Source: Pelagomonas calceolata
Taxonomy: Eukaryota
DNA length: 64,000 nt
Assembly (NCBI GenBank): GCA_918797485.1
Contig: CAKKNE010000001.1
Coordinates: 4,836,001 to 4,900,000 of the forward strand
Reading direction: 5' to 3'
In this document: piece after piece, positions 2,537-46,670 of the stretch
Layout of the letters: the number at the start of each line of letters is the position of its first letter
Numbering within the stretch: position 1 is the stretch's first letter
Notes under the pieces: model-generated
What the model saw: the letters and a program-made list of their open reading frames with translations, nothing else
The model's database searches: none
Told to the model about the DNA's origin: nothing
Translations under genes and position numbers: made by a program

Positions 2537-3751
2537 ATGCGCCGCCTCAGCCGCCAGCCGCGGCACCTGCAAAAGGCATCAGTGCGGGACCGAAGAAAGG
2601 GCCGCAGCTCTTTGGCCGCAACAGTGCTGGCGGTCACGGGCGCGTGGCTGCTCGTCGCGTGGTGGGCGCACGCGCGCCACGCGCCGCCCGCCGCCGCGCC
2701 CGCGCACCACGCGCCGCAGTTCAAGCAGATGCACGACGCGATGCGCGCCGCCGCCGCCGAGGTGCAGTTCGAGCCTCCTGAACCGCGGCCCGAGCGGCAA
2801 TCAAAAAGAACAGACCCCTACGGCAACGCCACGAAGGTGCTCGGCTTAGAAACGTGCGCCGCCTTCCGCGCCGCGAACCCCATCATATCATCAAGGCGCT
2901 TCGCGCCCGCGGGCTTGTTTAATTCGGCGACGAACGCGCTCTGGCAGACCATCTTATCCAACTGCCGCGTCTCCGAACATGGCAGGAACGACCTCTTCCA
3001 CCCGCCCTGGGGCAAGCACAACCCCGCGTCGTGGCGCGGCCGCCACCTGGCCAACATGTTCACAAATTCATCAGCACTCGGCTGGCGGCCGCGCATGGCG
3101 AGCGTGCTGCCCGTCGTGACGGTCAAGGACCCGTTGACCTGGATGCCGTCGATCTGCCGCCACCCCTACGCCGTGCGCCTCTCGTCGAAGCAGCGAACGA
3201 AGTGCCCTTTACCGCTGGACGCGCCCGTCTCCGTGGCATTCCAGCGGGCCCAGGTGGTGTACTACGATAACCTGGTGGACCTGTGGAGCCGGTGGCACGG
3301 CGAATATTATCAAGCGGCGTGGCCGCGGTTACTCGTACGGTTCGAGGATTTGTTGTTTGAACCCCGTGCTGTAGCTGGCGCGGTCTGCGATTGTTTGGGT
3401 GACGCCCTGTGTGGAAATCAACCAGTGCGTCGGTCGAGCGGTAAGGAACCAGCATCACCACGCCATCGAGCAGGCGTCGCGTCGATGGCGGAACGCGCCG
3501 TAAATTTTGATTTCCACACAGGTGGTGCTCTCGCGTCCGAGGCCGAGTTTAAGATCGACGGCCGGAAGACGGGCAAGGGCACGGCCTTCGGCCACGCGGC
3601 GGATACGAATAGCCGCGCCCAGGCGCTCGCGCTCTACGGGTCTTCGGTGAAACGAATGGAGCCCTACTCAACAACCGACGTGGCCTTCGTGCGCGCGCGG
3701 CTCGCCTCGGATGACGTCTGGCGCGGGCTCGGCTACGATGCCGTGCGATAG
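2537..3751 (+). CDS. Type II membrane protein with sulfotransferase-like (P-loop) fold; intron 3399-3521
   Basis: N-terminal TM (LAATVLAVTGAWLLVAWW); motifs AGLFNSATNAL, WGKH, VTVKDPLTW, LLVRFEDLL. Splicing gives CDCLG/GALASEAEF. Confidence 0.65.
   Translation: MRRLSRQPRHLQKASVRDRRKGRSSLAATVLAVTGAWLLVAWWAHARHAPPAAAPAHHAPQFKQMHDAMRAAAAEVQFEPPEPRPERQSKRTDPYGNATKVLGLETCAAFRAANPIISSRRFAPAGLFNSATNALWQTILSNCRVSEHGRNDLFHPPWGKHNPASWRGRHLANMFTNSSALGWRPRMASVLPVVTVKDPLTWMPSICRHPYAVRLSSKQRTKCPLPLDAPVSVAFQRAQVVYYDNLVDLWSRWHGEYYQAAWPRLLVRFEDLLFEPRAVAGAVCDCLGDALCGNQPVRRSSGKEPASPRHRAGVASMAERAVNFDFHTGGALASEAEFKIDGRKTGKGTAFGHAADTNSRAQALALYGSSVKRMEPYSTTDVAFVRARLASDDVWRGLGYDAVR
3399..3521 (+). mobile_element. 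Introner-type TIR element forming a 123-nt GT-AG intron
   Basis: TIRs CTGTGTGGAAATCAA (3407) and TTGATTTCCACACAG (3521); diverged 8-bp TSD GTGACGCC/GTGGTGCT; internal hairpin CGCCATCGA...TCGATGGCG. Confidence 0.9.
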
Positions 3752-10123: not shown

Positions 10124-11936
10124 ATGCCGCGCTCGCAGCCCTCGCCGGGCGGCGCATTCCCGCCCGAGCCGCCCCTCTCGCCGAGCGTCTCGCCCGCCAG
10201 CGCGGACCGCGGCCGGAAGAAGAGCGGCTCCGGCCACCGGCGCCGCGGCTCGTGGTCGCTCGAGCGGCCGCGCGCGCACTCCTTCGACGAGGCCGAAGGG
10301 CGAGCGTTAGGTGAGGACAGCGACTCGGACCTGAACACGCTGCCGACGCCCGCGCGCAAGCAAAGAAGGTCCACGGGCCGCGTGCGGCGCTTCCTGCGCC
10401 ACGAGGCCAACGTCGTCAAGGGCGGCTACAAGGCCACGAAGCGCAACGTCGGCCGCTTCGGCCGCTTCCTCACGAAGCCCATGCGCCCGGGCCGCGGCCG
10501 GGACGAGGGCGACAAGGCCGCGCGGGAGATCCCGGCGACGCCGCGAGCGCCCTGCCCGGCGGACCTCGCCGGGCCGGCGCTGCGGGCGGCGATGCGCGCC
10601 GTCTGCGCGGCGGCCCTGGTGGTTGCCGCCGCGGCCGCCGCCGTCGCGACGGCGCCGGCGCCGCGCGCCGCGGACGCAATCATCATGCTGGCCGCGCTCG
10701 TGTCGCTATTCGCGGCCTGCGACGCGTCGATGAAAGCGGCGGACCGCCTCGAGACGACGTACAAGGCCCATCAAGAGGAGGACGACGAGGACGACGTGAT
10801 CAAGGAGGCGCCCCTGACGTTGGTGAAAGAAGGGACGTCCGACGAGTCTGGTACGTGGGCGCCGGGCCGCGGCGCGGACTTCGCCGTGCGCTCGTCCACC
10901 TACTTAGAGAACGGCGTGAAGAAGCCATCATGTGAACCGCTCTACACCGTGGGCGTCGCGGGCTTCGCTATGTCTGCGGGGGCCGTGAATGACGGGAGCC
11001 GGGCCTACCCCGAGGTCCTCGAGAAGTTGCGGGGCGAGGACGCTGACAGAGACGTCTTTACGGATGCGAGTTCCCCTTTACCAAAGTACGTCATGATCAC
11101 GATGAACTCGCCCCTCGAGGCGCCCTCCTTAAGAAAGAAGGCCAAGGGCGAGAAGACGGCCGTGTTTGTGTTTGCGCTGCGGCGCAACGACGCGGCGATA
11201 GCCAAGGCGCCCAAAGCGGCCGTGGCTCTGGCGACGAAGTGGCTCTCGGACGCGCCGAACGACCCAGGATTGTCTGGAAGGTTAAAGGGCATCTTCCACG
11301 CGTCGGGCGACGGCGTGCCGAACCTCGCCAAGAAGTGGAACGGCAAGCCCGTGCTCCTTGCCGCGTCCGCGGCGGTGCGGTAATCAACCAATCTCGGCGG
11401 CGACGCGGCCACACTGGCACCGTCACGCCATCGAGCAGGCGTCGCGTCGATGGCGTCGAGGCCGACGCACAAAGGCGCAGTGAAACTCGTTTCTGCACAG
11501 GTCGGCGGGCTTCGGCGGCCGCGAGCGGCCGGGCATCAGCCGCTTTATTAGGGGAGCGGACTGCCTCGAGGTGAACGTCGACGTGAGCGAGAGTTTCACC
11601 TACATCGCGCGCGGCGCCATCTACTTAGTCACCGACAAGCTGCGTGACATCCGCATTAAATTTGGGTTCGTCGTCGAGGGCCGCGAGCGCGACGAGCTGT
11701 GCAGAAATCAAAATTTGCGCCGCCTGCTCGATGGCGTGGCGGTGTGGGTCTTAGACCCCTCGATTCAGTCATCACGGCCGCGTTGTCGCGCACCCGACTC
11801 ACTGGTTGATTTCCACACAGGCGACGAGCTGCCCGAGGCGCTCATCACGGCGGTGGACGTGCACCAGTTCGACTGGCGCGCGTGCGTCGACGGGCTCGTG
11901 CAGGCGGATACGCCGTCGGACGACGACGAGGCGTAG
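10124..11936 (+). CDS. Membrane protein with EDR2 C-terminal (DUF1336-like) domain; introns 11365-11500 and 11689-11820
   Basis: FAVRSSTYLENGVKKPS, RLKGI, WNGKPVL, LEVNVDV, FGFVVEGRERDELPE after splicing; two hydrophobic segments upstream. Confidence 0.8.
11365..11500 (+). mobile_element. Introner, 136-nt GT-AG intron
   Basis: TSD GTCCGCGG/GTCGGCGG (7/8); eroded TIRs CGGTGCGGTAATCAACCA...TTTCTGCACAG; intact core CACGCCATCGAGCAGGCGTCGCGTCGATGGCG. Confidence 0.85.
11689..11820 (+). mobile_element. Introner, 132-nt GC-AG intron with perfect 8-bp TSD
   Basis: GCGACGAG-CTGTGCAGAAATCAA...TTGATTTCCACACAG-GCGACGAG. Confidence 0.92.
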
Positions 11937-34868: not shown

Positions 34869-36117
34869 CTAGTCGCTCGCGTCGGTGTCCGCGAAGACGA
34901 CACGCAGCGCTGCCTTGGCGTCCGGCGGGGGCGAGGGCCTTCCGCTCGGCACGTCGAGGTCCCTACTGGAGTCCCTACCGGAGATGGCCGCCGACGTGAG
35001 GACCTTGTCCGGCGCGGCCTCGATGAACTTCAGCCCCAGGTACTCGAGGAAGCGCCTGACTAATTTCACGGTGTGGGCCTCCTCGTTCCAGACGATCTTG
35101 AAGGGCGGGTCCCAGCTCTGCAGGTGCTGCGCCGCGAGGCCGCAGCAGAAGGCCACGATCGCGATCATGATCCGGATTTTTAGGGTGGTGGCCGCGTCAT
35201 GTGGCAGGAGTCGGTCCATGAACGTAGGAGGCACGCGGTACTCCCGGTCTTCCTCCTTCGTCTGGGAGGACCTGTGTAGAAATTAACCAGTGAGTTAGGT
35301 TATCCTGAGAAATATTGCGTGGACCTTCGTGAGCTGATTTCCACACAGGGGAGGACGTCTTCCCGAGCTGCACCTCGATGGCGCCTACTTTAATGCGCGG
35401 ACCGCCCGCGGCCCGCACCTCGGAATGGCCGCCGACCCAGACGATGACCGGAAAGCCGAACGACTTGGCCCGCTCGACGGCCGCCCTTATCTGTTCGACG
35501 CCCCGCTTGCCGATGGGGTTCGCCCTTAGATCCAACTCAAAGCGTTTCGACGTGTCGAACGCACACGGCGACGAGAGTTGGTGGAGCGGATTGGCGCAGC
35601 TAGCTATTAATTGAGCCAGTCTCCTCGCTCCTTCGTTGCTGATGCCATGGTGCTGGATGATCAAGTTGCGCAGTCGCCTCTTTTCCTTCCGCACGAACTG
35701 CTTCCCGTGCAAGCGTTTCACTAGGTCCTTGATGCCGTCGTCGCCCAGCGGCTCCGCCTTTAGCGTGAGGTCGAGCGTCGTGCACCGCTTGAGGTTGATC
35801 TCGCCGTCGTCGCACCACTCGCCTTTTAAGCGCTTGCGCTCCCGCTTCTTCGATCTTATGTTATCCGTGCGCACGCGCGCGTAGGTGGCCGCTCCCACCA
35901 GCAAGGCAATGATCAGCGCGATCGCATATAAACCATAGCGCTGGAAGGTTTTTGATTTTTCGAGGAAGTTTGCCTTTTGGAGGCCCGGCAGGCCGGACTT
36001 CGCCCGCAGCTCTGCGAAATAAGAGCGCAGCTCCTTGGTCGGCGTGTCCTCGTCCTCCTCGGCGCGGCTGCCCTTTTTGGGTTCCGGCTCCGCGGCGCTG
36101 CTCCGGCGCGAGAACAT
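34869..36117 (-). CDS. Membrane protein with short RNI-like LRR region; intron 35272-35356
   Basis: TM YGLYAIALIIALLVGAA; LGDDGIKDL, ISNEGARRLA, LDLRANPIGKRG; splicing gives LGKT/SSQTKEEDREYRVPPTF and a second TM. Confidence 0.7.
35272..35356 (-). mobile_element. Introner, 85-nt GT-AG intron with perfect 8-bp TSD
   Basis: Minus strand GTCCTCCC-CTGTGTGGAAATCA...TTAATTTCTACACAG-GTCCTCCC. Confidence 0.92.
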
Positions 36118-39674: not shown

Positions 39675-42600
39675 CTACTCGATGCCTTCGGCCTCGAGGA
39701 TGTTGTGGCGGTACATGCGGTGGGGCGCCTCGCCGGCCGAGGGGTGGGCCTTCGGCACGTTCGTCTGCGAGAATTTGATGAGGTACTCGGGGTACGCCTG
39801 GGCGTCGTGGTACGTGACGTAGATGCTCGGCTCCTTGCCGGGCTCGGTGTCGACCGTGGAGTCGAAGAGCAGGTTCTTGGCGTTGTCGCGGATGTCGGGC
39901 GTGAGCGCGTCCTTGACGCCCTTGCAGTACTGGCCGACGACCGCGCGCACGAGGAAGATCGACTGCACGCCCTGCGGGTCCGGGCGGCAGTAGAGCGGGT
40001 AGGTCGAGTACTTGGCGTCGCGGGCGAAGTAGACGCCCTTGCCGTAGAACGTCGCGTTCTTGCCGCAGAACGAGCGGTTGAAGCCTTGTTGGAGGATCTT
40101 GGGCACGATGTCGCCGGGGCAGCCGTGGAAGAGCCAGCAGCGCACGTACTTGCGCAGGGCCTTGCTCTCGTCCTCCTCGCGCGCGCAGATCTGCGACTTC
40201 TTCACGGAGTACGACTGCCAGAGGCTCACGTTCTGCACGCGGTCGATGGAGTAGATGCGGAAGTTCGAGCGGTTCAAGGTCAACATGAAGGCATTCAAGA
40301 CGCGGTTGTACTCGTCCCGCGTCTTCGCGTCGCGCGGGTCGAGGCGGAAGAGCTCGGCCATGAGCGGGTCCTTGACCTCGTCCCAGTACGCCGGCGGGTC
40401 CAAAGCCGACGCGCCGCCGCTGCCCCCGAGGGCCTTCTGGAGCTCGGCGAGCTGGTCCGCCGAGGGCACCTCCGTGTTCTCCATCTCGAACCAGCCCTGG
40501 TCTCGCGACCAGCCGACCGGAGGAGTGTCTGTCGGCGCGCCGGCCGCCGGCATCATGAGGGACCCGAAGGCCCATTTGCCGTCGTCGTGCTCCCGGGCGA
40601 TCTGCACGATGCTCCCGACGTGGAGCACCATGCAGGGCTCGTCGGCGTCGATGTCCGAGGGGCGGTCCGCGCCCTGCTCGACGTCGCGCGACGCCGGCCG
40701 CGCCACGGGGACAACCGGCGGCGCGTCCCGCAACATCTTGCGGCTGAAGCCCGTCCTTAAGTTCGTCTGGAGCATGCGCTCGACGTCGGCCTCGTACGCC
40801 GCCGTGAGCTGGATCTTGCCCTGGCGCGCGACGAAGGCCTTCTCGAGGCGCGCGGAGGCCGCGTCGTCGTAGGGGATCCAGTACGGCGGCTTGACGACGG
40901 GGTGGGCCGCCAGGCGCGCCGGGCTCTCCTCCCAGTACCAGCGCGCCGGCGCGGCCGGCGGCCCCGCGCGGCCGCCGCCGCCGCCGCCGCCCCCGGGCGC
41001 GGCGGCCTTGACGACGGCGCGCATGCCGACGACGCTGTCGCGGAAGTTCTGGAGCTCCTCCTGCTGCTCGGAGATAATGGCCTTCTGGGCTTTGCTTTTC
41101 GCCTGTGTGGAAATCAACCAGTGCGTCGGGTGCGTCGGCGATGACGCGGCCGTCCTGGCTCGGTCGAGCGGCGAGGAACCGGCATCGCCACGCCATCGAG
41201 CAGGCGTCGCGTCGATGGCGTGGAGGACGACGCGATGATTCAGCACAAACGCGCCGTAAAATTTTGATTTCCACACAGCTCTTCACCTTCATCTTCTTGC
41301 GGTAGAAGTAGAGGAAGACCGCGAGGCCGAGGAGGAGGACGCACATGACGACGATCATGGCGATGACGTAGCCCGGGACCTCGTTCGACCCCTTCTTGCT
41401 CGGCGTTTTGCACGTGCCGCCGTCGCACTCGCCCTCGACGCACGGCCAGTCGCCCGAGCAGAAGCCGCCCAGCATGCCCGCGGAGGTGCCGTACATCCCG
41501 GCGTACATCAGGTCGAATCCCTTCTTCGGGACCGGGTTGTTCAGGTCGGACTCGAAGACGGCGACGAACTTGCCGCTGGTCGCGGTGTATTCGAACTCCC
41601 ACTCGGCGGGATCGTCACCGCCCTTCAACGTCCCCACCAGCGTGCCGTCCTCGTCATTGTTGTAGATCTTGACGGCGTCCGTGGTGGACGTGAGCGCGCC
41701 CGACGCCTCGACGTCCCAGACCAGGGCCTTGAACGACAGGCCCGTGAAGCCAGGCGACACTTCGAACTCCCAGCGGCACGTCGTCATCGCGGGGTAGTCC
41801 GTCGCATCCGCCGCGCTCTTCCCCGAGCTCGACGAGAACGAGCCGTGCCCGTGAACGCCGTCACGTTTCTGCGTGCCGGTGCAGTGATCCAGCGCGCAGT
41901 TCTTGATCGGCGGCGTCCAGTCGCCGTCGCAGTTGTCCTTAATCGTACTCGAAGTCGGAAGGGACCTGTATTTGAGCTCGAAGCCGCCGTTGTCCGTGGC
42001 GCCCACGGCCGTGTTGCCGAGGCCGTCCGACTCGAACGTCACGAAGACGTCGCCCTCAAAAAGTAATGGCGAGGGCGGCGTCGAGCCCGTCGCCGCGTAG
42101 AGCAGCTTCGGCTCCGTCGCTGGATCCGTGAGCGAAAAGCCCGTCGGCGCGGTGCCACCCGCGTAGATCTTGACGAAGTCGAAGCCGTTCTCGATCGCGA
42201 GCTGCGTGAACTCGAGCTCTACGTAGCTCGTCGTCTCGATGCGCCAGCCGCAGCGCGAGTTCGGCGCGTATTTATCCTCGGTTGTGGCCTTTATGGACTG
42301 CTGAGTTCCGGATGCTTGTTTTGTGACGACGCCGAGGCAGTAGGCGTACTCGCAGCTCGCGCCGCTCGTCCCGGCGGCGCAATTGGTGTTGGGGGCACTC
42401 CCTATGGAGCTGGAAGTCGCTTCAAAGCCCACGTCCTCGAGCACGCCGATCGCGTTCTCGTCGTAGCTATTCGTGGTCCATTTGACCGTGACCTCATCCT
42501 TAGAGCGGATCTCCGGCAGGTCGCTCGCGTCCCACCGGCCGGTGAACGCCGCCAGGAGGTCGCCATCTTTGTTGTAGAACTCGAGCCCGTCGTCGGGCGT

Positions 42601-44031
42601 CTCCGACATAAGTTTGGTGATGTCTATGGTTACGTAGGTGCTGGACGTGAATTTCCACTCGCAGTTCTGGTCGGGCGCGTAGGCGGCCGTACTCCCAGAG
42701 CCATCGTAAATTGTCTGCCCGGCCGAAAGAGTGCCCCCCGTGCACGTGCTGCCGTCTTTCTCCTGGACGGAGGCGGTTTTGCCTAAGTCGAACTCGCCGT
42801 CGACGATGGGACCGGCCGTGTCAGCCGCGAGCAGCGTCTGGTAGTCGCTGTCCGAGAGTTCCTGGAGGGCCGTTTTGTAATAGTTGCCGTCGTAGTAGGG
42901 CGCAGGGTCGCCGCACGTACCGCCTCCGGCGCAATCGGCGTTCGACTCGCACGTCTTAGCAAAGTCGTCGGAACAAATCTTCGCGGAAGGGTCCTCGGCC
43001 AGCACCTTCTGCTCGTAGAAGAAGTAGGCCGAGTTCTGAGTCATCTTGGGGAGGTCGTAATATTCTTCAGCATATTTACCGTTACTATCGGGGAGCTGGT
43101 CATCGACGCTCAAGTACTCGAATTTCTCGACGGCCTTTTTGGTGGCATCCCTATCGTCGTTGCTTATGCTCGCGCTGCCGAGGTACTCCTGGAGGTAGGA
43201 GAATTCCGTGACGATTTCGTTGTAGTCACCACTCGTCCCCCAGTTGCCCGTGTCGAGCTTCGTGGCCGCCGCACTCTGCGTGTAGTCGTAGCGCGTCTGC
43301 TCGAAGGCGGTGACGAGCTTCTTGACGAGGCTTGGATGACTCGCGATGAACTCGTTGGAGGCCGCCAGGACGTTGCCAGTGACATATTCCCACTGAGCCA
43401 CCGTCGTGGCGTCGACCATGGCGCGGCCCCCGTTGGCCTCCATGTACTGCATCGTCGTGCCCCAGATGCACGCGCCGTCGATGGTGCCGTCATCCCAGGC
43501 CGCCTTGATTTCATCCGGCGACATGAACACGAGGTTCACGTCCGTCAGGTCCATGCCGGCGTTCGCGATGACCGCGAGCGCGACGTAGTGCGTCGTGCTG
43601 GTCTTCGGCACCGCGATCGTCGCCTTCCACGTCTCGTTCGAGAGCTGCTTGGGCTCGGTGAACTGCTCGCGCGTAATGAGCGCCTCCGCCGAGCCCTTGA
43701 TGTGCGCCATTGCGACGGCCTGGAGCGCGCCGCGCCGCGCCGCCGACGCCGCGTACGGCGTCGAACCGAGCAGCGCCATGTCCAGGTCGCCCGAGTCGAG
43801 CTTTTGGATCGAGTAAATGCCGCTCGACTGCCGGTAGAAGGTCCAGCACTCGGCGCAAACGGTAGAACTTGTAGTAGTAGGACTCGTCCAGCAATCGTTG
43901 AGCCAGTCCGTCATGATGGCCAGCGCCTCCGGGTTGGAGTCCCCGAACGTGCCCACGCGGATGCGCTTGGTGCACGTTTGCGCCGCCGCGAGCCCGGGCA
44001 GCAGCGAAACAAGGAGGGCGCGCATCGCCAT
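39675..44031 (-). CDS. Single-pass receptor-like ADP-ribosyltransferase (signal peptide, TauA-like SBP, CUB/EGF modules, TM, WWE, SH3-like, PARP catalytic domain); intron 41103-41286; about 1390 aa
   Basis: Exons 44031-41287 and 41102-39675 join in frame (RKKMK/AKSKAQK). Motifs: LDSGDLDMALLGSTP, IAVPKTSTTHY, AWDDGTIDGACIW; YAPNSRCGWRI..GFDFVKIY; WYWE..WIPYD..QTNLRTGFSR; LFHG, YGKGVYFARDAKYS, YPEYLIKF. Confidence 0.88.
41103..41286 (-). mobile_element. Introner, longest copy (176-bp element), 184-nt GT-AG intron
   Basis: Perfect 15-bp TIR CTGTGTGGAAATCAA; TSD GTGAAGAG/GCGAAAAG (6/8); central hairpin. Confidence 0.93.
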
Positions 44032-44330: not shown

Positions 44331-45275
44331 TTACAAAACCGGCCTCAGCTTCGCGAGCTCGCGCTTTAAGCGCGCGCGCTCACCCGCTTTAAGACCGCAG
44401 TCCGCGAGGAGGTCTCCGAGGTCCCCGGCATCGCGCGCCTCGACGAGGTCCTCAACGCCGACTTTCTCCGCGGCGAAGGTCGCTTCGAACTCGTCCAGGC
44501 GGGCCGCGCGGAGCAGGTCGGCGAGGTCCCCCACCGGCTCGGGCGCCGCGACCGGCTCGGGCGCCGCAGCGACCACCAGCGCGGGCGCGGCGACCACCGG
44601 CTCGGGCGCCGCCTCGGGCTCCGGCGCGGCCGCGGCGCCCTTGGCCTCCAGGGCTGCGTCGCAGCGCGCCTCGAGCGCCGCGAACTCGAGCGTCGCGGCG
44701 AGCGCGGCGGCGGCGGCGGCCAGGTCGTCGCCCACGGCGCGCTCGAGGTCGGTCCGCGCGCGGAGCCGCTCGATGGCCGCCGCGCCGCCCACGCCCGCGA
44801 AGGCCGCGGCGAAGGGTCCGGCGCGGCAGTGCTCGGCGAGGAGCGCCGCGGCGCAGCGCAGGCACCGCGGCGCCTCGCAGTCGTCGTCGTCGTCGTCCTC
44901 CGCGTCGGCGCCCGCCGCGAACCAGGCGAGCGCCGCCGGCCAGCGCGTCGCGGCGGCGCCGGCGAGGAACCGCGCCGCGTCGGCGATCGAGAGCGTCGCG
45001 TCGGCGAGCGCCGCCCGCAGCGGCCTGAGCGGCGGCGCCAGGATCGCGCGCCGGAGCGCCGCGGCGCGCGCGGGCCCGCCGCCGTCGTCGTCGCCGCGCG
45101 AAGCGATGGCGCGCTCGAGCGCCTGCACGCGCGAGGCCAGCTTCTTGTCGCGCGCGAGCGCCGGCGACACGCTGTCCGCGTCGAGCCACGTCGCCTCGTT
45201 CGCGCCCTCGACCGCCGGGTCCGCGTCGAGGTCGTAGGCGCCATCCTCGGTGAGCTCTTGGACCAGGGTGGCCAT
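44331..45275 (-). CDS. Ala-rich protein with C-terminal SAM-like domain
   Basis: LADLLRAARLDEFEATFAAEKVGVEDL....LADCGLKAGERARLKREL. Confidence 0.65.
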   Translation of the reverse strand: MATLVQELTEDGAYDLDADPAVEGANEATWLDADSVSPALARDKKLASRVQALERAIASRGDDDGGGPARAAALRRAILAPPLRPLRAALADATLSIADAARFLAGAAATRWPAALAWFAAGADAEDDDDDDCEAPRCLRCAAALLAEHCRAGPFAAAFAGVGGAAAIERLRARTDLERAVGDDLAAAAAALAATLEFAALEARCDAALEAKGAAAAPEPEAAPEPVVAAPALVVAAAPEPVAAPEPVGDLADLLRAARLDEFEATFAAEKVGVEDLVEARDAGDLGDLLADCGLKAGERARLKRELAKLRPVL

Positions 45276-45758: not shown

Positions 45759-46670
45759 ATGGCTGAGGAGCTAAGGACCTCCTGCGCGTTGTACGCGTAC
45801 AGCGCAGCAGCGCGCTCGTGCGCCGAGGGCGTCGCACCGCTGCGTGCCGAGGCGCCACGGGCAGCGGCTGGTGGCGAATCACCTGGCAAGCCGGCCAAAA
45901 TCTTGCGGGACCGCGCGCCGTCCGCCGAGGCGGCCACCACCGAGGCGCCGGCCAAGAAGAAGCCCAAGCCGAGACTGACGCACTTCTTCGCGCTGCGCGT
46001 GGCGCCGGACGCGCTCCGTGAGACTGCCGGCGCCCTGCAGACGGCGCTCGTGGAGGCCGACAAGGATCTTTCCAAGTGCGTGATTTCACCGGAGAAGTTC
46101 CACGTCACGCTCGGATTGCTCTCCCTGGGCGCGGGAGATCCCGACGCGCGCCAGCGCGCCGAGGCCGCCCTCCTCGAAGCCGCGGCCGCACCGCCGCCGA
46201 CGGTCGTCTTCCCCGGGCTCGACTCGTTCGGCGACCGAGTGCTCTTCGCGAAGGTCGAGGATGCGTTGGGCGACGGGCGGCTCGCGGCCGTCGCCGCTGC
46301 GTCCAAGCGCGCGCTGGAGGCACACGGCTTCCCGAACCAGCCCGATTTCGCGCCGCACATGACGCTCGCGAAGACGAGCAAAGCGCGCACGCGCCGGCGG
46401 CTGAAGATCCCCAAGGCGTCCTGGGCCGCGCTGGCCGACGCGCCCGCCGCAGGGACGCAGACCCTCGGCACGATCGAATTGCTTAGCATGGTCGGCGACG
46501 ACGGCAGCGGAGGCTACCCAGTCGTCGCGGCGGCGCCGCTCGGCGGCGGGGAGCTCGTGACGCCGTCTGACGGCGCCACCGTCGAGGTGTCTGCACCCCG
46601 CAGCAAACGCGCGCGGTGGAAGCGGAACACGCGGGCTCGCCGCGCCGCGGCCTCGGAGAAGACTGTTTAA
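45759..46670 (+). CDS. AKAP7-like 2H phosphoesterase
   Basis: THFFALRV and two HxT motifs (FHVTLG, PHMTLAK); GLDSFGDRVLFA. Confidence 0.85.
   Translation: MAEELRTSCALYAYSAAARSCAEGVAPLRAEAPRAAAGGESPGKPAKILRDRAPSAEAATTEAPAKKKPKPRLTHFFALRVAPDALRETAGALQTALVEADKDLSKCVISPEKFHVTLGLLSLGAGDPDARQRAEAALLEAAAAPPPTVVFPGLDSFGDRVLFAKVEDALGDGRLAAVAAASKRALEAHGFPNQPDFAPHMTLAKTSKARTRRRLKIPKASWAALADAPAAGTQTLGTIELLSMVGDDGSGGYPVVAAAPLGGGELVTPSDGATVEVSAPRSKRARWKRNTRARRAAASEKTV

What the first reader, a model, noticed from the sequence alone, without database searches (positions are those of the whole stretch)
39675..44031. Candidate receptor ADP-ribosyltransferase: TauA-like ligand-binding ectodomain coupled across the membrane to a WWE-SH3-PARP module
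Seen: the ORF track splits this gene in two, but removing the introner at 41103-41286 gives one ~1390-aa frame. It has a signal peptide; a solute-binding domain (~43970-43000: LDSGDLDMALLGSTP, GSAEALI, IAVPKTSTTHY, MSPDEIKAAWDDGTIDGACIW); three CUB-like modules with Cys-rich EGF-like spacers (~42720-41410); one TM followed by RKK (~41380-41300); a short coiled coil; WWE (~40940-40735); an SH3-like segment; and a PARP catalytic domain (LFHG, YGKGVYFA, PSIYV, YPEYLI). Established: the SBP motifs resemble the bacterial taurine ABC-transporter binding protein TauA (SsuA/NMT1 class). An H-Y-I triad without the catalytic Glu marks mono-ADP-ribosylating PARPs, and WWE domains bind ADP-ribose. Inference: the layout mirrors a receptor kinase with an ART as the output, converting an extracellular taurine/sulfonate-like signal into intracellular mono-ADP-ribosylation. 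I know of no description of this architecture.
Basis: partly seen in the sequence, partly recalled or inferred. Interest (0 to 1): 0.92.

Follow-up and report, generated by a model that had tools for sequence, protein, structure and literature searches.

The report
Receptor PARPs with swappable sensor domains
A marine alga splices one gene that joins a bacterial-type small-molecule binding domain, through a single membrane helix, to an ADP-ribose-tagging (PARP) domain, and the same PARP tail sits behind many other sensor domains in algae and choanoflagellates, so these proteins likely form an undescribed class of receptors that would signal by ADP-ribosylation.

Summary
Confirmed and wider than reported. 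RNA reads skip exactly the 184-nt introner (58 and 49 stranded reads), giving one 1390-aa protein: Pelagomonas calceolata Pca_1p27270. Layout: signal peptide, TauA-fold binding domain (Z 39.6), three CUB-type domains, one TM helix, a short helix, an SH3 domain with a WWE domain inserted in it, and a PARP15-like H-Y-I catalytic domain. The same tail follows a TM helix in 99 of 100 aligned homologues from pelagophytes, diatoms and choanoflagellates, behind Venus-flytrap, TauA-like, PstS-like, Bmp, Cache or LRR ectodomains that have been swapped repeatedly. The same ectodomain feeds a guanylyl cyclase in an ichthyosporean. Best reading: a receptor mono-ADP-ribosyltransferase, probably switched by ligand-driven change in a dimer; activity and ligand control are untested. 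Taurine as ligand is doubtful: two of TauA's taurine contacts are replaced (Q30 to F, D205 to N). The domain list stands in an automatic annotation table, but ten open-access searches found no description of such receptors.

The parts
43978..44031 (-). Signal-peptide-like N terminus (aa 1-18)
   Evidence: Hydrophobic stretch ending in an AxA motif; same in P0001, P0002, P0004; no predictor run
42865..43968 (-). TauA/SsuA-fold solute-binding domain (aa 22-389), with a Cys-rich insert at aa 353-373
   Evidence: Pfam NMT1 E 4e-10; TauA 6SSY E 7e-25; model vs 6SSY Z 39.6, rmsd 1.4 A over 293 residues
42403..42744 (-). CUB-type domain 1 (aa ~430-543)
   Evidence: Pfam CUB_2 E 5e-4, below cut-off; all-beta in the model; boundaries read from DSSP
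41959..42339 (-). CUB domain 2 (aa ~565-691)
   Evidence: TSG-6 CUB Z 15.3, rmsd 1.8 A over 111 residues; Pfam CUB
41494..41883 (-). CUB domain 3 (aa ~717-846)
   Evidence: Best Pfam CUB stretch 741-843, E 1.8e-15 for the protein
41410..41460 (-). Four-Cys juxtamembrane spacer (aa 858-874)
   Evidence: Sequence; no Pfam EGF hit here, EGF hits in distant relatives P0173, P0176
41305..41367 (-). Single transmembrane helix (aa ~889-909) followed by RKK
   Evidence: Kyte-Doolittle 19-mer peak 3.2; helix in the model
41103..41286 (-). 184-nt introner intron, GT..AG, 15-nt TIRs, 8-nt target duplication
41034..41102 (-). Juxtamembrane helix (aa 916-938), continuing aa 910-915 of exon 1
   Evidence: Helix 2-23 of the tail model; a basic-then-amphipathic stretch in the 23 homologues printed
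41004..41030 (-). First strand of the SH3 domain (aa 940-948)
   Evidence: SH3 chains align from tail residue 25-27
40722..40949 (-). WWE domain (aa 967-1042) inserted between strands 1 and 2 of the SH3; pocket W972, Y1018, Q1027, N1029, T1032, R1036
   Evidence: Pfam WWE E 1e-7; Z 10.4-10.8 to TRIP12, DTX1, HUWE1; spacing as in HUWE1
40464..40643 (-). Rest of the SH3 domain (aa ~1069-1128)
   Evidence: VAV SH3 Z 8.0, rmsd 2.0 A, 65 of 65 residues, model range 27-215; Pfam SH3_2 in homologues P0114, P0123
39765..40403 (-). PARP catalytic domain (aa ~1149-1361); H1241, Y1273, I1342; R1258 and D1348
   Evidence: Pfam PARP E 1.6e-20; PARP15 E 8e-39, Z 26.0, rmsd 1.5 A; conservation
39675..44031 (-). 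Whole gene, 1390 aa; P. calceolata Pca_1p27270 / CAH0366247.1
   Evidence: Binding domain, WWE and PARP 100% identical to CAH0366247.1; five flanking genes in the same order as in the genome paper's table

Best explanation
This spliced gene encodes a single-pass membrane protein with a TauA-fold binding domain and three CUB-type domains on one side and an SH3-WWE-PARP module on the other, and it likely works as a receptor that turns binding of a small anion outside the cytosol into mono-ADP-ribosylation inside. Shown: one transcript across the intron, the domain order, intact catalytic and ADP-binding residues, and a family of about 100 relatives in which the same tail sits behind different sensors. 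Predicted: the folds and the nesting of the WWE inside the SH3. Inferred, in order: (1) a ligand closes the two-lobed binding domain; the oxyanion half of the TauA pocket is kept and the amine half is weakened, so a sulfonate- or phosphonate-type anion without a free amine is more likely than taurine; (2) the CUB stalk and TM helix of a dimer pass the change to the juxtamembrane helix, which runs straight into SH3 strand 1; (3) two PARP domains are brought into or allowed to form a PARP15-like contact and become active; (4) the enzyme adds single ADP-ribose units to itself and to partners; (5) the WWE reads terminal ADP-ribose and, sitting in the SH3's first loop, would couple that mark to partner binding or feedback.
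For: Splice and expression. TM helix just upstream of the tail in 99 of 100 aligned homologues. Ectodomains among those 100: 44 Venus flytrap, 17 TauA-like, 9 Cache, 6 CUB-only fragments, 5 LRR, 4 flytrap plus 5'-nucleotidase, 3 PstS-like, 1 Bmp, 1 nucleotidase multi-pass, 10 other: nearly all recognised ones are ligand-sensing folds. Swapping: P0003 (TauA) and P0046 (flytrap) share 89% in the tail and nothing outside; P0004 (TauA) groups with P0047/P0048 (flytrap) at 100/99; one clade of flytrap tails is rejected, p-AU 5e-34. The same binding-domain-plus-CUB ectodomain feeds a kinase-homology/guanylyl cyclase in Chromosphaera perkinsii (P0176). Triad: H 100 of 101, Y 101 of 101, third position I/M/L/V 101 of 101. 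WWE pocket W 99, Y 86 (F 13), Q 99, R 99 of 101. PARP15, the closest solved domain, needs its catalytic-domain dimer for activity (PMC12572374); its salt-bridge pair R576/D665 maps to R1258 (101 of 101) and D1348 (100 of 101).
Against: No activity, ligand or location was measured. The R/D pair is also present in the animal PARP14-like proteins printed, and PARP14 and PARP10 domains are monomeric in vitro, so it does not show a dimer. Some swaps rest on single assembled contigs (P0046 has one member) and could be assembly chimeras; the flytrap group was named after a first tree had been seen. No read bridges 40959-41006. The ectodomain model was built on an alignment that holds TauA-like proteins, so its closeness to TauA is partly built in. 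Only one N-glycosylation sequon lies in the 890-aa ectodomain.
Confidence: 0.7

Rival explanations
1. A membrane-anchored mono-ART whose activity is constitutive or controlled from inside (by ADP-ribose, NAD+ level or clustering), while the ectodomain serves capture, adhesion or trafficking.
For: CUB domains are often scaffolds (Foldseek hits: cubilin, neuropilin, PCPE-1); the tail carries its own ADP-ribose reader; a flexible Gly/Pro linker lies at aa 951-966 (pLDDT below 50).
Against: The flexible linkers lie inside the SH3 insertion, not between TM and SH3; six unrelated sensor folds are used with one tail; binding-pocket residues G61, G79, T132, W176 equivalents are kept in 24-25 of 25 eukaryote-type rows.
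Confidence: 0.12
2. A ligand-regulated ART that senses the lumen of the ER, vacuole or phagosome rather than sea water.
For: A signal peptide and one TM helix do not fix the compartment; only one sequon.
Against: A long Cys-rich stalk, and LRR/HRM or flytrap ectodomains in relatives, are typical of surface receptors (own knowledge).
Confidence: 0.08
3. The PARP domain is not a protein-modifying enzyme: it is an NAD+-binding scaffold, an NAD+ hydrolase, or modifies RNA ends.
For: PARP15 also modifies RNA (PMC12572374 abstract); PARP13 shares the fold and is inactive.
Against: H and Y are kept in 100 and 101 of 101 rows and the D-loop matches active PARP10/14/15; the paired WWE has the HUWE1/TRIP12 pocket for terminal ADP-ribose.
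Confidence: 0.08
4. Two adjacent genes, or a chance fusion, joined only by a reading of the intron.
For: No single record bridges the GGC repeat; read depth is higher over the PARP end.
Against: 107 junction reads and two contigs; four full-length homologue clusters at 52-59% identity, one with uninterrupted 1355-aa ORFs on contigs up to 44 kb; 3' excess is partly reads of paralogues.
Confidence: 0.02

Closest known systems
Receptor guanylyl cyclases (natriuretic-peptide-receptor type) and trypanosome receptor adenylyl cyclases (recalled)
   Same: Solute-binding or Venus-flytrap ectodomain, one TM helix, a helical linker and a cytosolic nucleotide-using enzyme; 44 of 100 family members carry the ANF_receptor domain; this gene's own ectodomain type sits on a kinase-homology/guanylyl cyclase in Chromosphaera.
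   Different: No kinase-homology or cyclase domain; the output is SH3(WWE)-PARP, a protein modification and not a second messenger.
Receptor kinases (RTKs, plant LRR-RLKs; recalled)
   Same: Type I topology, exchangeable ectodomains including LRR, a writer enzyme paired with a reader domain for its own mark.
Clade 3 mono-ARTs PARP15, PARP14, PARP10, PARP12
   Same: Catalytic fold (PARP15 Z 26.0, 40% identity), H-Y-hydrophobic triad, D-loop, WWE ahead of the PARP domain.
   Different: Those are soluble proteins with macro, RRM, KH or zinc-finger domains; none has a signal peptide, ectodomain, TM helix or SH3. Perina et al. (PMC4245714, passages) mention TM segments in a sponge and in rhizarian clade 3 proteins but no ligand-binding ectodomain.
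PARP16 and ecto-ARTs (ARTC)
   Same: Membrane-bound ADP-ribosyltransferases.
   Different: PARP16 is anchored by a C-terminal TM and has no ectodomain; ARTCs have the enzyme outside the cell and an R-S-E triad (recalled).
TauA, taurine-binding protein of the E. coli TauABC importer (PDB 6SSY)
   Same: Fold and best sequence match; G61, G79, E106, S131, T132, W176 equivalents kept in this protein.
   Different: Q30 is F and D205 is N; scores 105 bits against a 304-bit cut-off for TIGR01729; fused to a receptor, no transporter.

Membership tests
Clade 3 mono-ADP-ribosylating PARPs (PARP10/12/14/15) | PARP catalytic fold closest to PARP10/12/14/15 | tested here: met
Clade 3 mono-ADP-ribosylating PARPs (PARP10/12/14/15) | H-Y-hydrophobic triad without the catalytic Glu | tested here: met
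   H1241, Y1273, I1342 align to PARP15 H559, Y and L659; Glu in 0 of 101 rows
Clade 3 mono-ADP-ribosylating PARPs (PARP10/12/14/15) | Measured mono-ADP-ribosyl transfer | not testable with these tools
   Needs an assay
PARP15-type dimer-activated ART | R576/D665 salt-bridge pair | tested here: inconclusive
   Present (R1258, D1348) but also in PARP14-like proteins, whose human form is monomeric
PARP15-type dimer-activated ART | Catalytic-domain homodimer | not tested
   The complex predictor was not available
TauA taurine-binding proteins | Type II solute-binding fold closest to TauA | tested here: met
   Z 39.6 to TauA against 29.5 to SsuA; E 7e-25 against 1e-8
TauA taurine-binding proteins | Taurine contacts Q30, G61, G79, E106, T132, D205 | tested here: not met
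   4 of 6 kept; Q30 is F29, D205 is N220
TauA taurine-binding proteins | NCBIfam equivalog cut-off (TIGR01729) | tested here: not met
   105.2 bits against 304.25
ADP-ribose-binding WWE domains (HUWE1/TRIP12 type) | Trp, Tyr-x8-Gln-x-Asn-x2-Thr-x3-Arg pocket | tested here: met
   W972, Y1018, Q1027, N1029, T1032, R1036 have the spacing of HUWE1 Y1658/Q1667/N1669/T1672/R1676
SH3 domains | Five-strand barrel aligning over a whole SH3 | tested here: met
   21 of the 50 rows (rank 30 and ranks 32-50 bar none but ZAP at 31 give 20) align 54-74 residues across tail positions ~25-215; best Z 8.0, rmsd 2.0 A; Z is moderate and rests on a predicted model
SH3 domains | Binding of proline-rich peptides | not testable with these tools
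   W1092, G1118-W-F1120 are conserved but the first loop is replaced by the WWE
Receptor guanylyl cyclases | Ligand-binding ectodomain plus one TM helix | tested here: met
Receptor guanylyl cyclases | Kinase-homology and cyclase domains | tested here: not met
   The tail is fully accounted for by SH3, WWE and PARP
Receptor kinases | Cytosolic protein kinase domain | tested here: not met
PARP16 / ecto-ARTs | C-terminal anchor, or enzyme on the outer side | tested here: not met
   TM helix precedes the PARP and is followed by RKK
Introner elements | Multi-copy intron with TIRs and target duplication, spliced out | tested here: met
   definition from PMC11282704 passages

The most novel reading that the evidence does not exclude
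Receptor PARPs are a further class of enzyme-linked receptor, beside receptor kinases, phosphatases and cyclases: a conserved SH3(WWE)-PARP output unit is plugged behind exchangeable chemical sensors in pelagophytes, diatoms and choanoflagellates, is switched on by ligand through a PARP15-like dimer, and lets phytoplankton read dissolved metabolites such as sulfonates directly as ADP-ribosylation.
Probability: 0.55. Interest if true: 0.93.

Novelty: categorically new. Interest (0 to 1): 0.84.

Why it matters
ADP-ribosylation is known as an answer to DNA damage, viruses and stress inside the cell, and an early survey listed Aureococcus and diatoms as lacking PARPs (PMC2964712). A family of about 100 single-pass proteins that wire nutrient-, peptide- and LRR-type sensors to a mono-ART would add a new output to the short list of enzyme-linked receptors, give abundant marine algae a testable chemosensing pathway, and offer a natural ligand-switchable PARP for studying how clade 3 PARPs are turned on. 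Its presence in choanoflagellates bears on signalling before animals. Every part is of a known kind and function is untested; the novelty lies in the coupling.

Tried and rejected
No whole genome was held, so paralogues were seen only as diverging reads and contigs and in the genome paper's table, which was cut when stored (three receptor-type PARP rows among five PF00644 rows). The complex predictor was not available, so the dimer was not modelled. The metagenome scan gave 1 locus from 60 candidates, covering only the gene's start. The ESM Atlas gave no usable hit for the SH3-WWE part. The wide VIA search of the ectodomain was not run; the second look at Foldseek's matches was used. A first likelihood tree of 107 rows did not finish; FastTree and an 18-row IQ-TREE run replaced it. 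Earlier findings: nothing by sequence or by the full word list; eight loosely related notes, none on a receptor PARP. Rejected: taurine as the likely ligand (pocket changes); the public gene model's boundaries (it reads a different intron end and drops 17 aa at 354-370, whereas RNA shows the 184-nt joint and no gap at 354-370); a tandem WWE-then-SH3 order; any role for the introner beyond being a cleanly spliced insertion (relatives lack it); a functional link with neighbouring genes.
Full report
OBSERVATION. On the minus strand a 915-codon frame from 44031 ends at 41287; a 184-nt GT..AG intron follows; a 475-codon frame runs from 41102 to the stop at 39675. Joined they give 1390 aa without a stop, with GC3 of 0.86 and 0.97. 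The intron has 15-nt terminal inverted repeats, has further copies in the window and an 8-nt target duplication that is exact in two other copies: an introner whose removal restores the original sequence. In poly(A) RNA, 58 and 49 reads skip exactly these 184 nt, all on the strand expected for this gene (two runs of one sample, about 6% and 12% read), and contigs of two other runs show the same joint; one contig runs from 44132 across the joint to 41007. The tool skips the GGC repeat at 40959-41006, so no record bridges it. Continuity there comes from the open genomic frame and from single ORFs on 2.6- and 4.6-kb contigs that cross both joint and repeat with 96-97% identity in the tail (P0320, P0333).

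IDENTITY. The binding domain, WWE and PARP are 100% identical to CAH0366247.1 of Pelagomonas calceolata, and the flanking genes (ROK, aspartyl protease, an unannotated ORF, AKAP7-like, LRR) match the rows around Pca_1p27270 in Supplementary Data 2 of PMC9481584. That public model is already one protein, but it has a different intron end and lacks 17 aa at 354-370, neither of which the RNA supports. The table lists PF02825, PF09084, PF00644 and PF00431 for it; the main text has no occurrence of PARP, ADP-ribos, WWE or taurine.

ECTODOMAIN. The first domain's best solved match is E. coli TauA by sequence (E 7e-25; SsuA 1e-8) and by model (pLDDT 84.9, pTM 0.84; Z 39.6, rmsd 1.4 A over 293 residues, model range 22-389; SsuA Z 29.5). 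The alignment behind the model held TauA-like proteins, so part of that closeness is built in. TauA binds taurine through Q30, G61, G79, T132, E106 and D205; Q30A and D205A lower affinity from 1.6 nM to 3.5 and 22.9 uM and E106A abolishes it (PMC6906117, passages). Here the equivalents are F29, G71, G89, T146, E116 and N220. In 25 eukaryote-type rows (this protein and 24 long relatives) Q30 is F in 25, G61 and G79 are kept in 25, T132 in 24, E106 is E in 5 and Q in 19, and D205 is D in 1. The backbone oxyanion site is kept and the amine site is weakened, so I infer an anion without a free amine, such as isethionate or DHPS (candidates from own knowledge), and put taurine as the main ligand at about 0.2. 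Three CUB-type domains follow: two pass Pfam, the first is weak; Foldseek finds cubilin, neuropilin, PCPE-1 and MASP.

CYTOSOLIC TAIL. The model (66 sequences, pLDDT 86.9, pTM 0.69) has a helix at aa 917-938, then an SH3 domain whose first strand is aa 940-948 and whose remaining strands are aa 1069-1128: whole SH3 chains align across tail residues 25-215 (VAV SH3 Z 8.0, rmsd 2.0 A, 65 of 65), while WWE chains align to 52-127 (Z 10.4-10.8). The WWE is thus inserted in the first loop of the SH3, between low-confidence linkers. Pfam SH3_2 hits in two homologues begin at profile position 13-15, as a split domain would give. The WWE pocket has HUWE1's spacing (PMC11269756, passages) and is conserved; that type prefers terminal ADP-ribose, the product of a mono-ART. 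The PARP domain is closest to PARP15 (E 8e-39; Z 26.0, rmsd 1.5 A). H1241 is kept in 100 and Y1273 in 101 of 101 rows; the third position is I 71, M 13, L 11, V 6 and never Glu.

A FAMILY. A search with the tail among longer proteins gave 344 hits at E 1e-20 or better among 7984 scored candidates; 120 were listed. I aligned 100 of the 120 with the window, leaving out by eye 20 rows with low coverage of the tail: 15 animal PARP14-like or similar, 2 kinase-PARPs... in detail P0062, P0112, P0113, P0131, P0138, P0140 and P0142-P0155; three of these (P0062, P0112, P0113) do have hydrophobic segments. Of the 100, 99 have a hydrophobic helix shortly upstream of the WWE (median 72 aa). Their ectodomains are Venus flytrap (44), TauA-like (17), Cache (9), CUB-only fragments (6), LRR (5), flytrap plus 5'-nucleotidase (4), PstS-like (3), Bmp (1), nucleotidase multi-pass (1) and unrecognised (10); about seven are multi-pass. 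Named sources are Aureococcus anophagefferens, Cylindrotheca, Nitzschia inconspicua, Seminavis robusta and the choanoflagellates Stephanoeca diplocostata, Helgoeca nana and sp. UC4; most rows are unnamed environmental sequences.

SWAPPING. On trees of the tail, TauA-like and flytrap members interleave. P0003 and P0046 are 89% identical in the tail with unrelated ectodomains and a break just before the TM; P0004 groups with P0047/P0048 at 100/99, the latter on 93- and 46-kb contigs; holding five flytrap tails together is rejected (p-AU 5e-34), with the caveat that the group was named after the first tree. P0321 has a flytrap-type stalk on a tail 96-98% identical to this gene in SH3 and PARP. 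Single-contig cases could be chimeras. Conversely, the TauA-like ectodomain is found on a kinase-homology/guanylyl cyclase in Chromosphaera perkinsii (P0176; stalk colinear at 23% identity, pairwise E 1e-4) and on a multi-pass TRP-like protein (P0260). Input and output are each portable, which is how receptor families behave.

MECHANISM. Shown: one transcript, domain order, intact residues, family. Predicted: folds and nesting. Inferred (0.7): ligand closes the binding domain, the stalk and TM of a dimer move the juxtamembrane helix and SH3, the PARP domains become active, the protein mono-ADP-ribosylates itself and partners, and the WWE reads the mark. PARP15 needs a catalytic-domain dimer built on R576/D665 (PMC12572374; abstract, passages, one results section and the discussion read), and R1258/D1348 are nearly invariant here. 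Against reading much into this: the pair is also in animal PARP14-like proteins, and PARP14 and PARP10 are monomers in vitro. The dimer was not modelled. Rivals: ligand-independent anchored ART (0.12), lumen sensor (0.08), non-protein-modifying PARP (0.08), two genes (0.02).

PRIOR KNOWLEDGE. Six aimed at the architecture; three of them returned no paper and the listings of the others showed no such receptor; one search was swamped by clinical papers; some searches served TauA, PARP15 and introners. Passages by term search: PMC4245714 mentions TM segments in a sponge and in rhizarian clade 3 PARPs but no ligand-binding ectodomain; PMC2964712 lists Aureococcus and two diatoms as without PARPs; PMC7335047 and PMC12716839 have no occurrence of PARP or WWE in the main text; PMC3417536 and PMC13224862 showed nothing relevant. 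One review of ART natural history that I recall was not held. Subscription papers, bioRxiv supplements and most supplementary tables were not seen, and automatic names such as 'receptor family ligand binding protein' or 'taurine ABC transporter periplasmic ligand binding protein' with PARP already stand on Nitzschia records. The architecture is on file; I found no description of it as a receptor class.

VERDICT. Real, spliced, expressed and conserved; one member of a broad family of apparent receptor mono-ADP-ribosyltransferases. Interest 0.84.

Noticed in passing
window 3407-3521, 11697-11820, 35272-35348, 48721 onward: Further copies of the same introner; the copies at 11697 and 35272 have exact 8-nt target duplications.
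   Followed up: partly
window 42913-42975: A four-Cys insert in the binding domain that none of the five homologues aligned has; the public gene model cuts 17 aa of it, but an RNA contig covers it without a gap.
   Followed up: partly
P0176 (Chromosphaera perkinsii), P0260: The TauA-like plus CUB/EGF ectodomain on a receptor guanylyl cyclase and on a multi-pass TRP-like protein.
   Followed up: partly
P0119, P0126, P0130, P0134, P0135, P0139, P0141: Family members in which the SH3(WWE)-PARP tail follows several hydrophobic helices, some behind Cache, ephrin-like or nucleotidase domains; possibly 7TM-type receptor PARPs.
   Followed up: no
P0324, P0326: A WWE 97-99% identical to this gene's joined to ankyrin repeats on 1.0-1.6-kb contigs; real fusion or assembly chimera.
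   Followed up: no
PMC9481584 Supplementary Data 2, Pca_4p05310: A P. calceolata protein listed with a periplasmic-binding domain, a ligand-gated ion-channel binding domain and a WWE.
   Followed up: no
window 42848-42983: 16 and 8 reads skip 134 nt with unknown letters between and non-canonical ends; probably reads of a paralogue.
   Followed up: no
window 44334-45275 (-) and 45762-46667 (+): Upstream ORF with no Pfam match, and an AKAP7-like 2H phosphoesterase gene beyond it; no link to the receptor shown.
   Followed up: partly
P0121: A Cache-type member filed under the ciliate Tiarina fusa; may come from prey or a contaminant.
   Followed up: no
P0144, P0145, P0131: Kinase-PARP and PH-PARP fusions with a closely related catalytic domain and no TM helix.
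   Followed up: no
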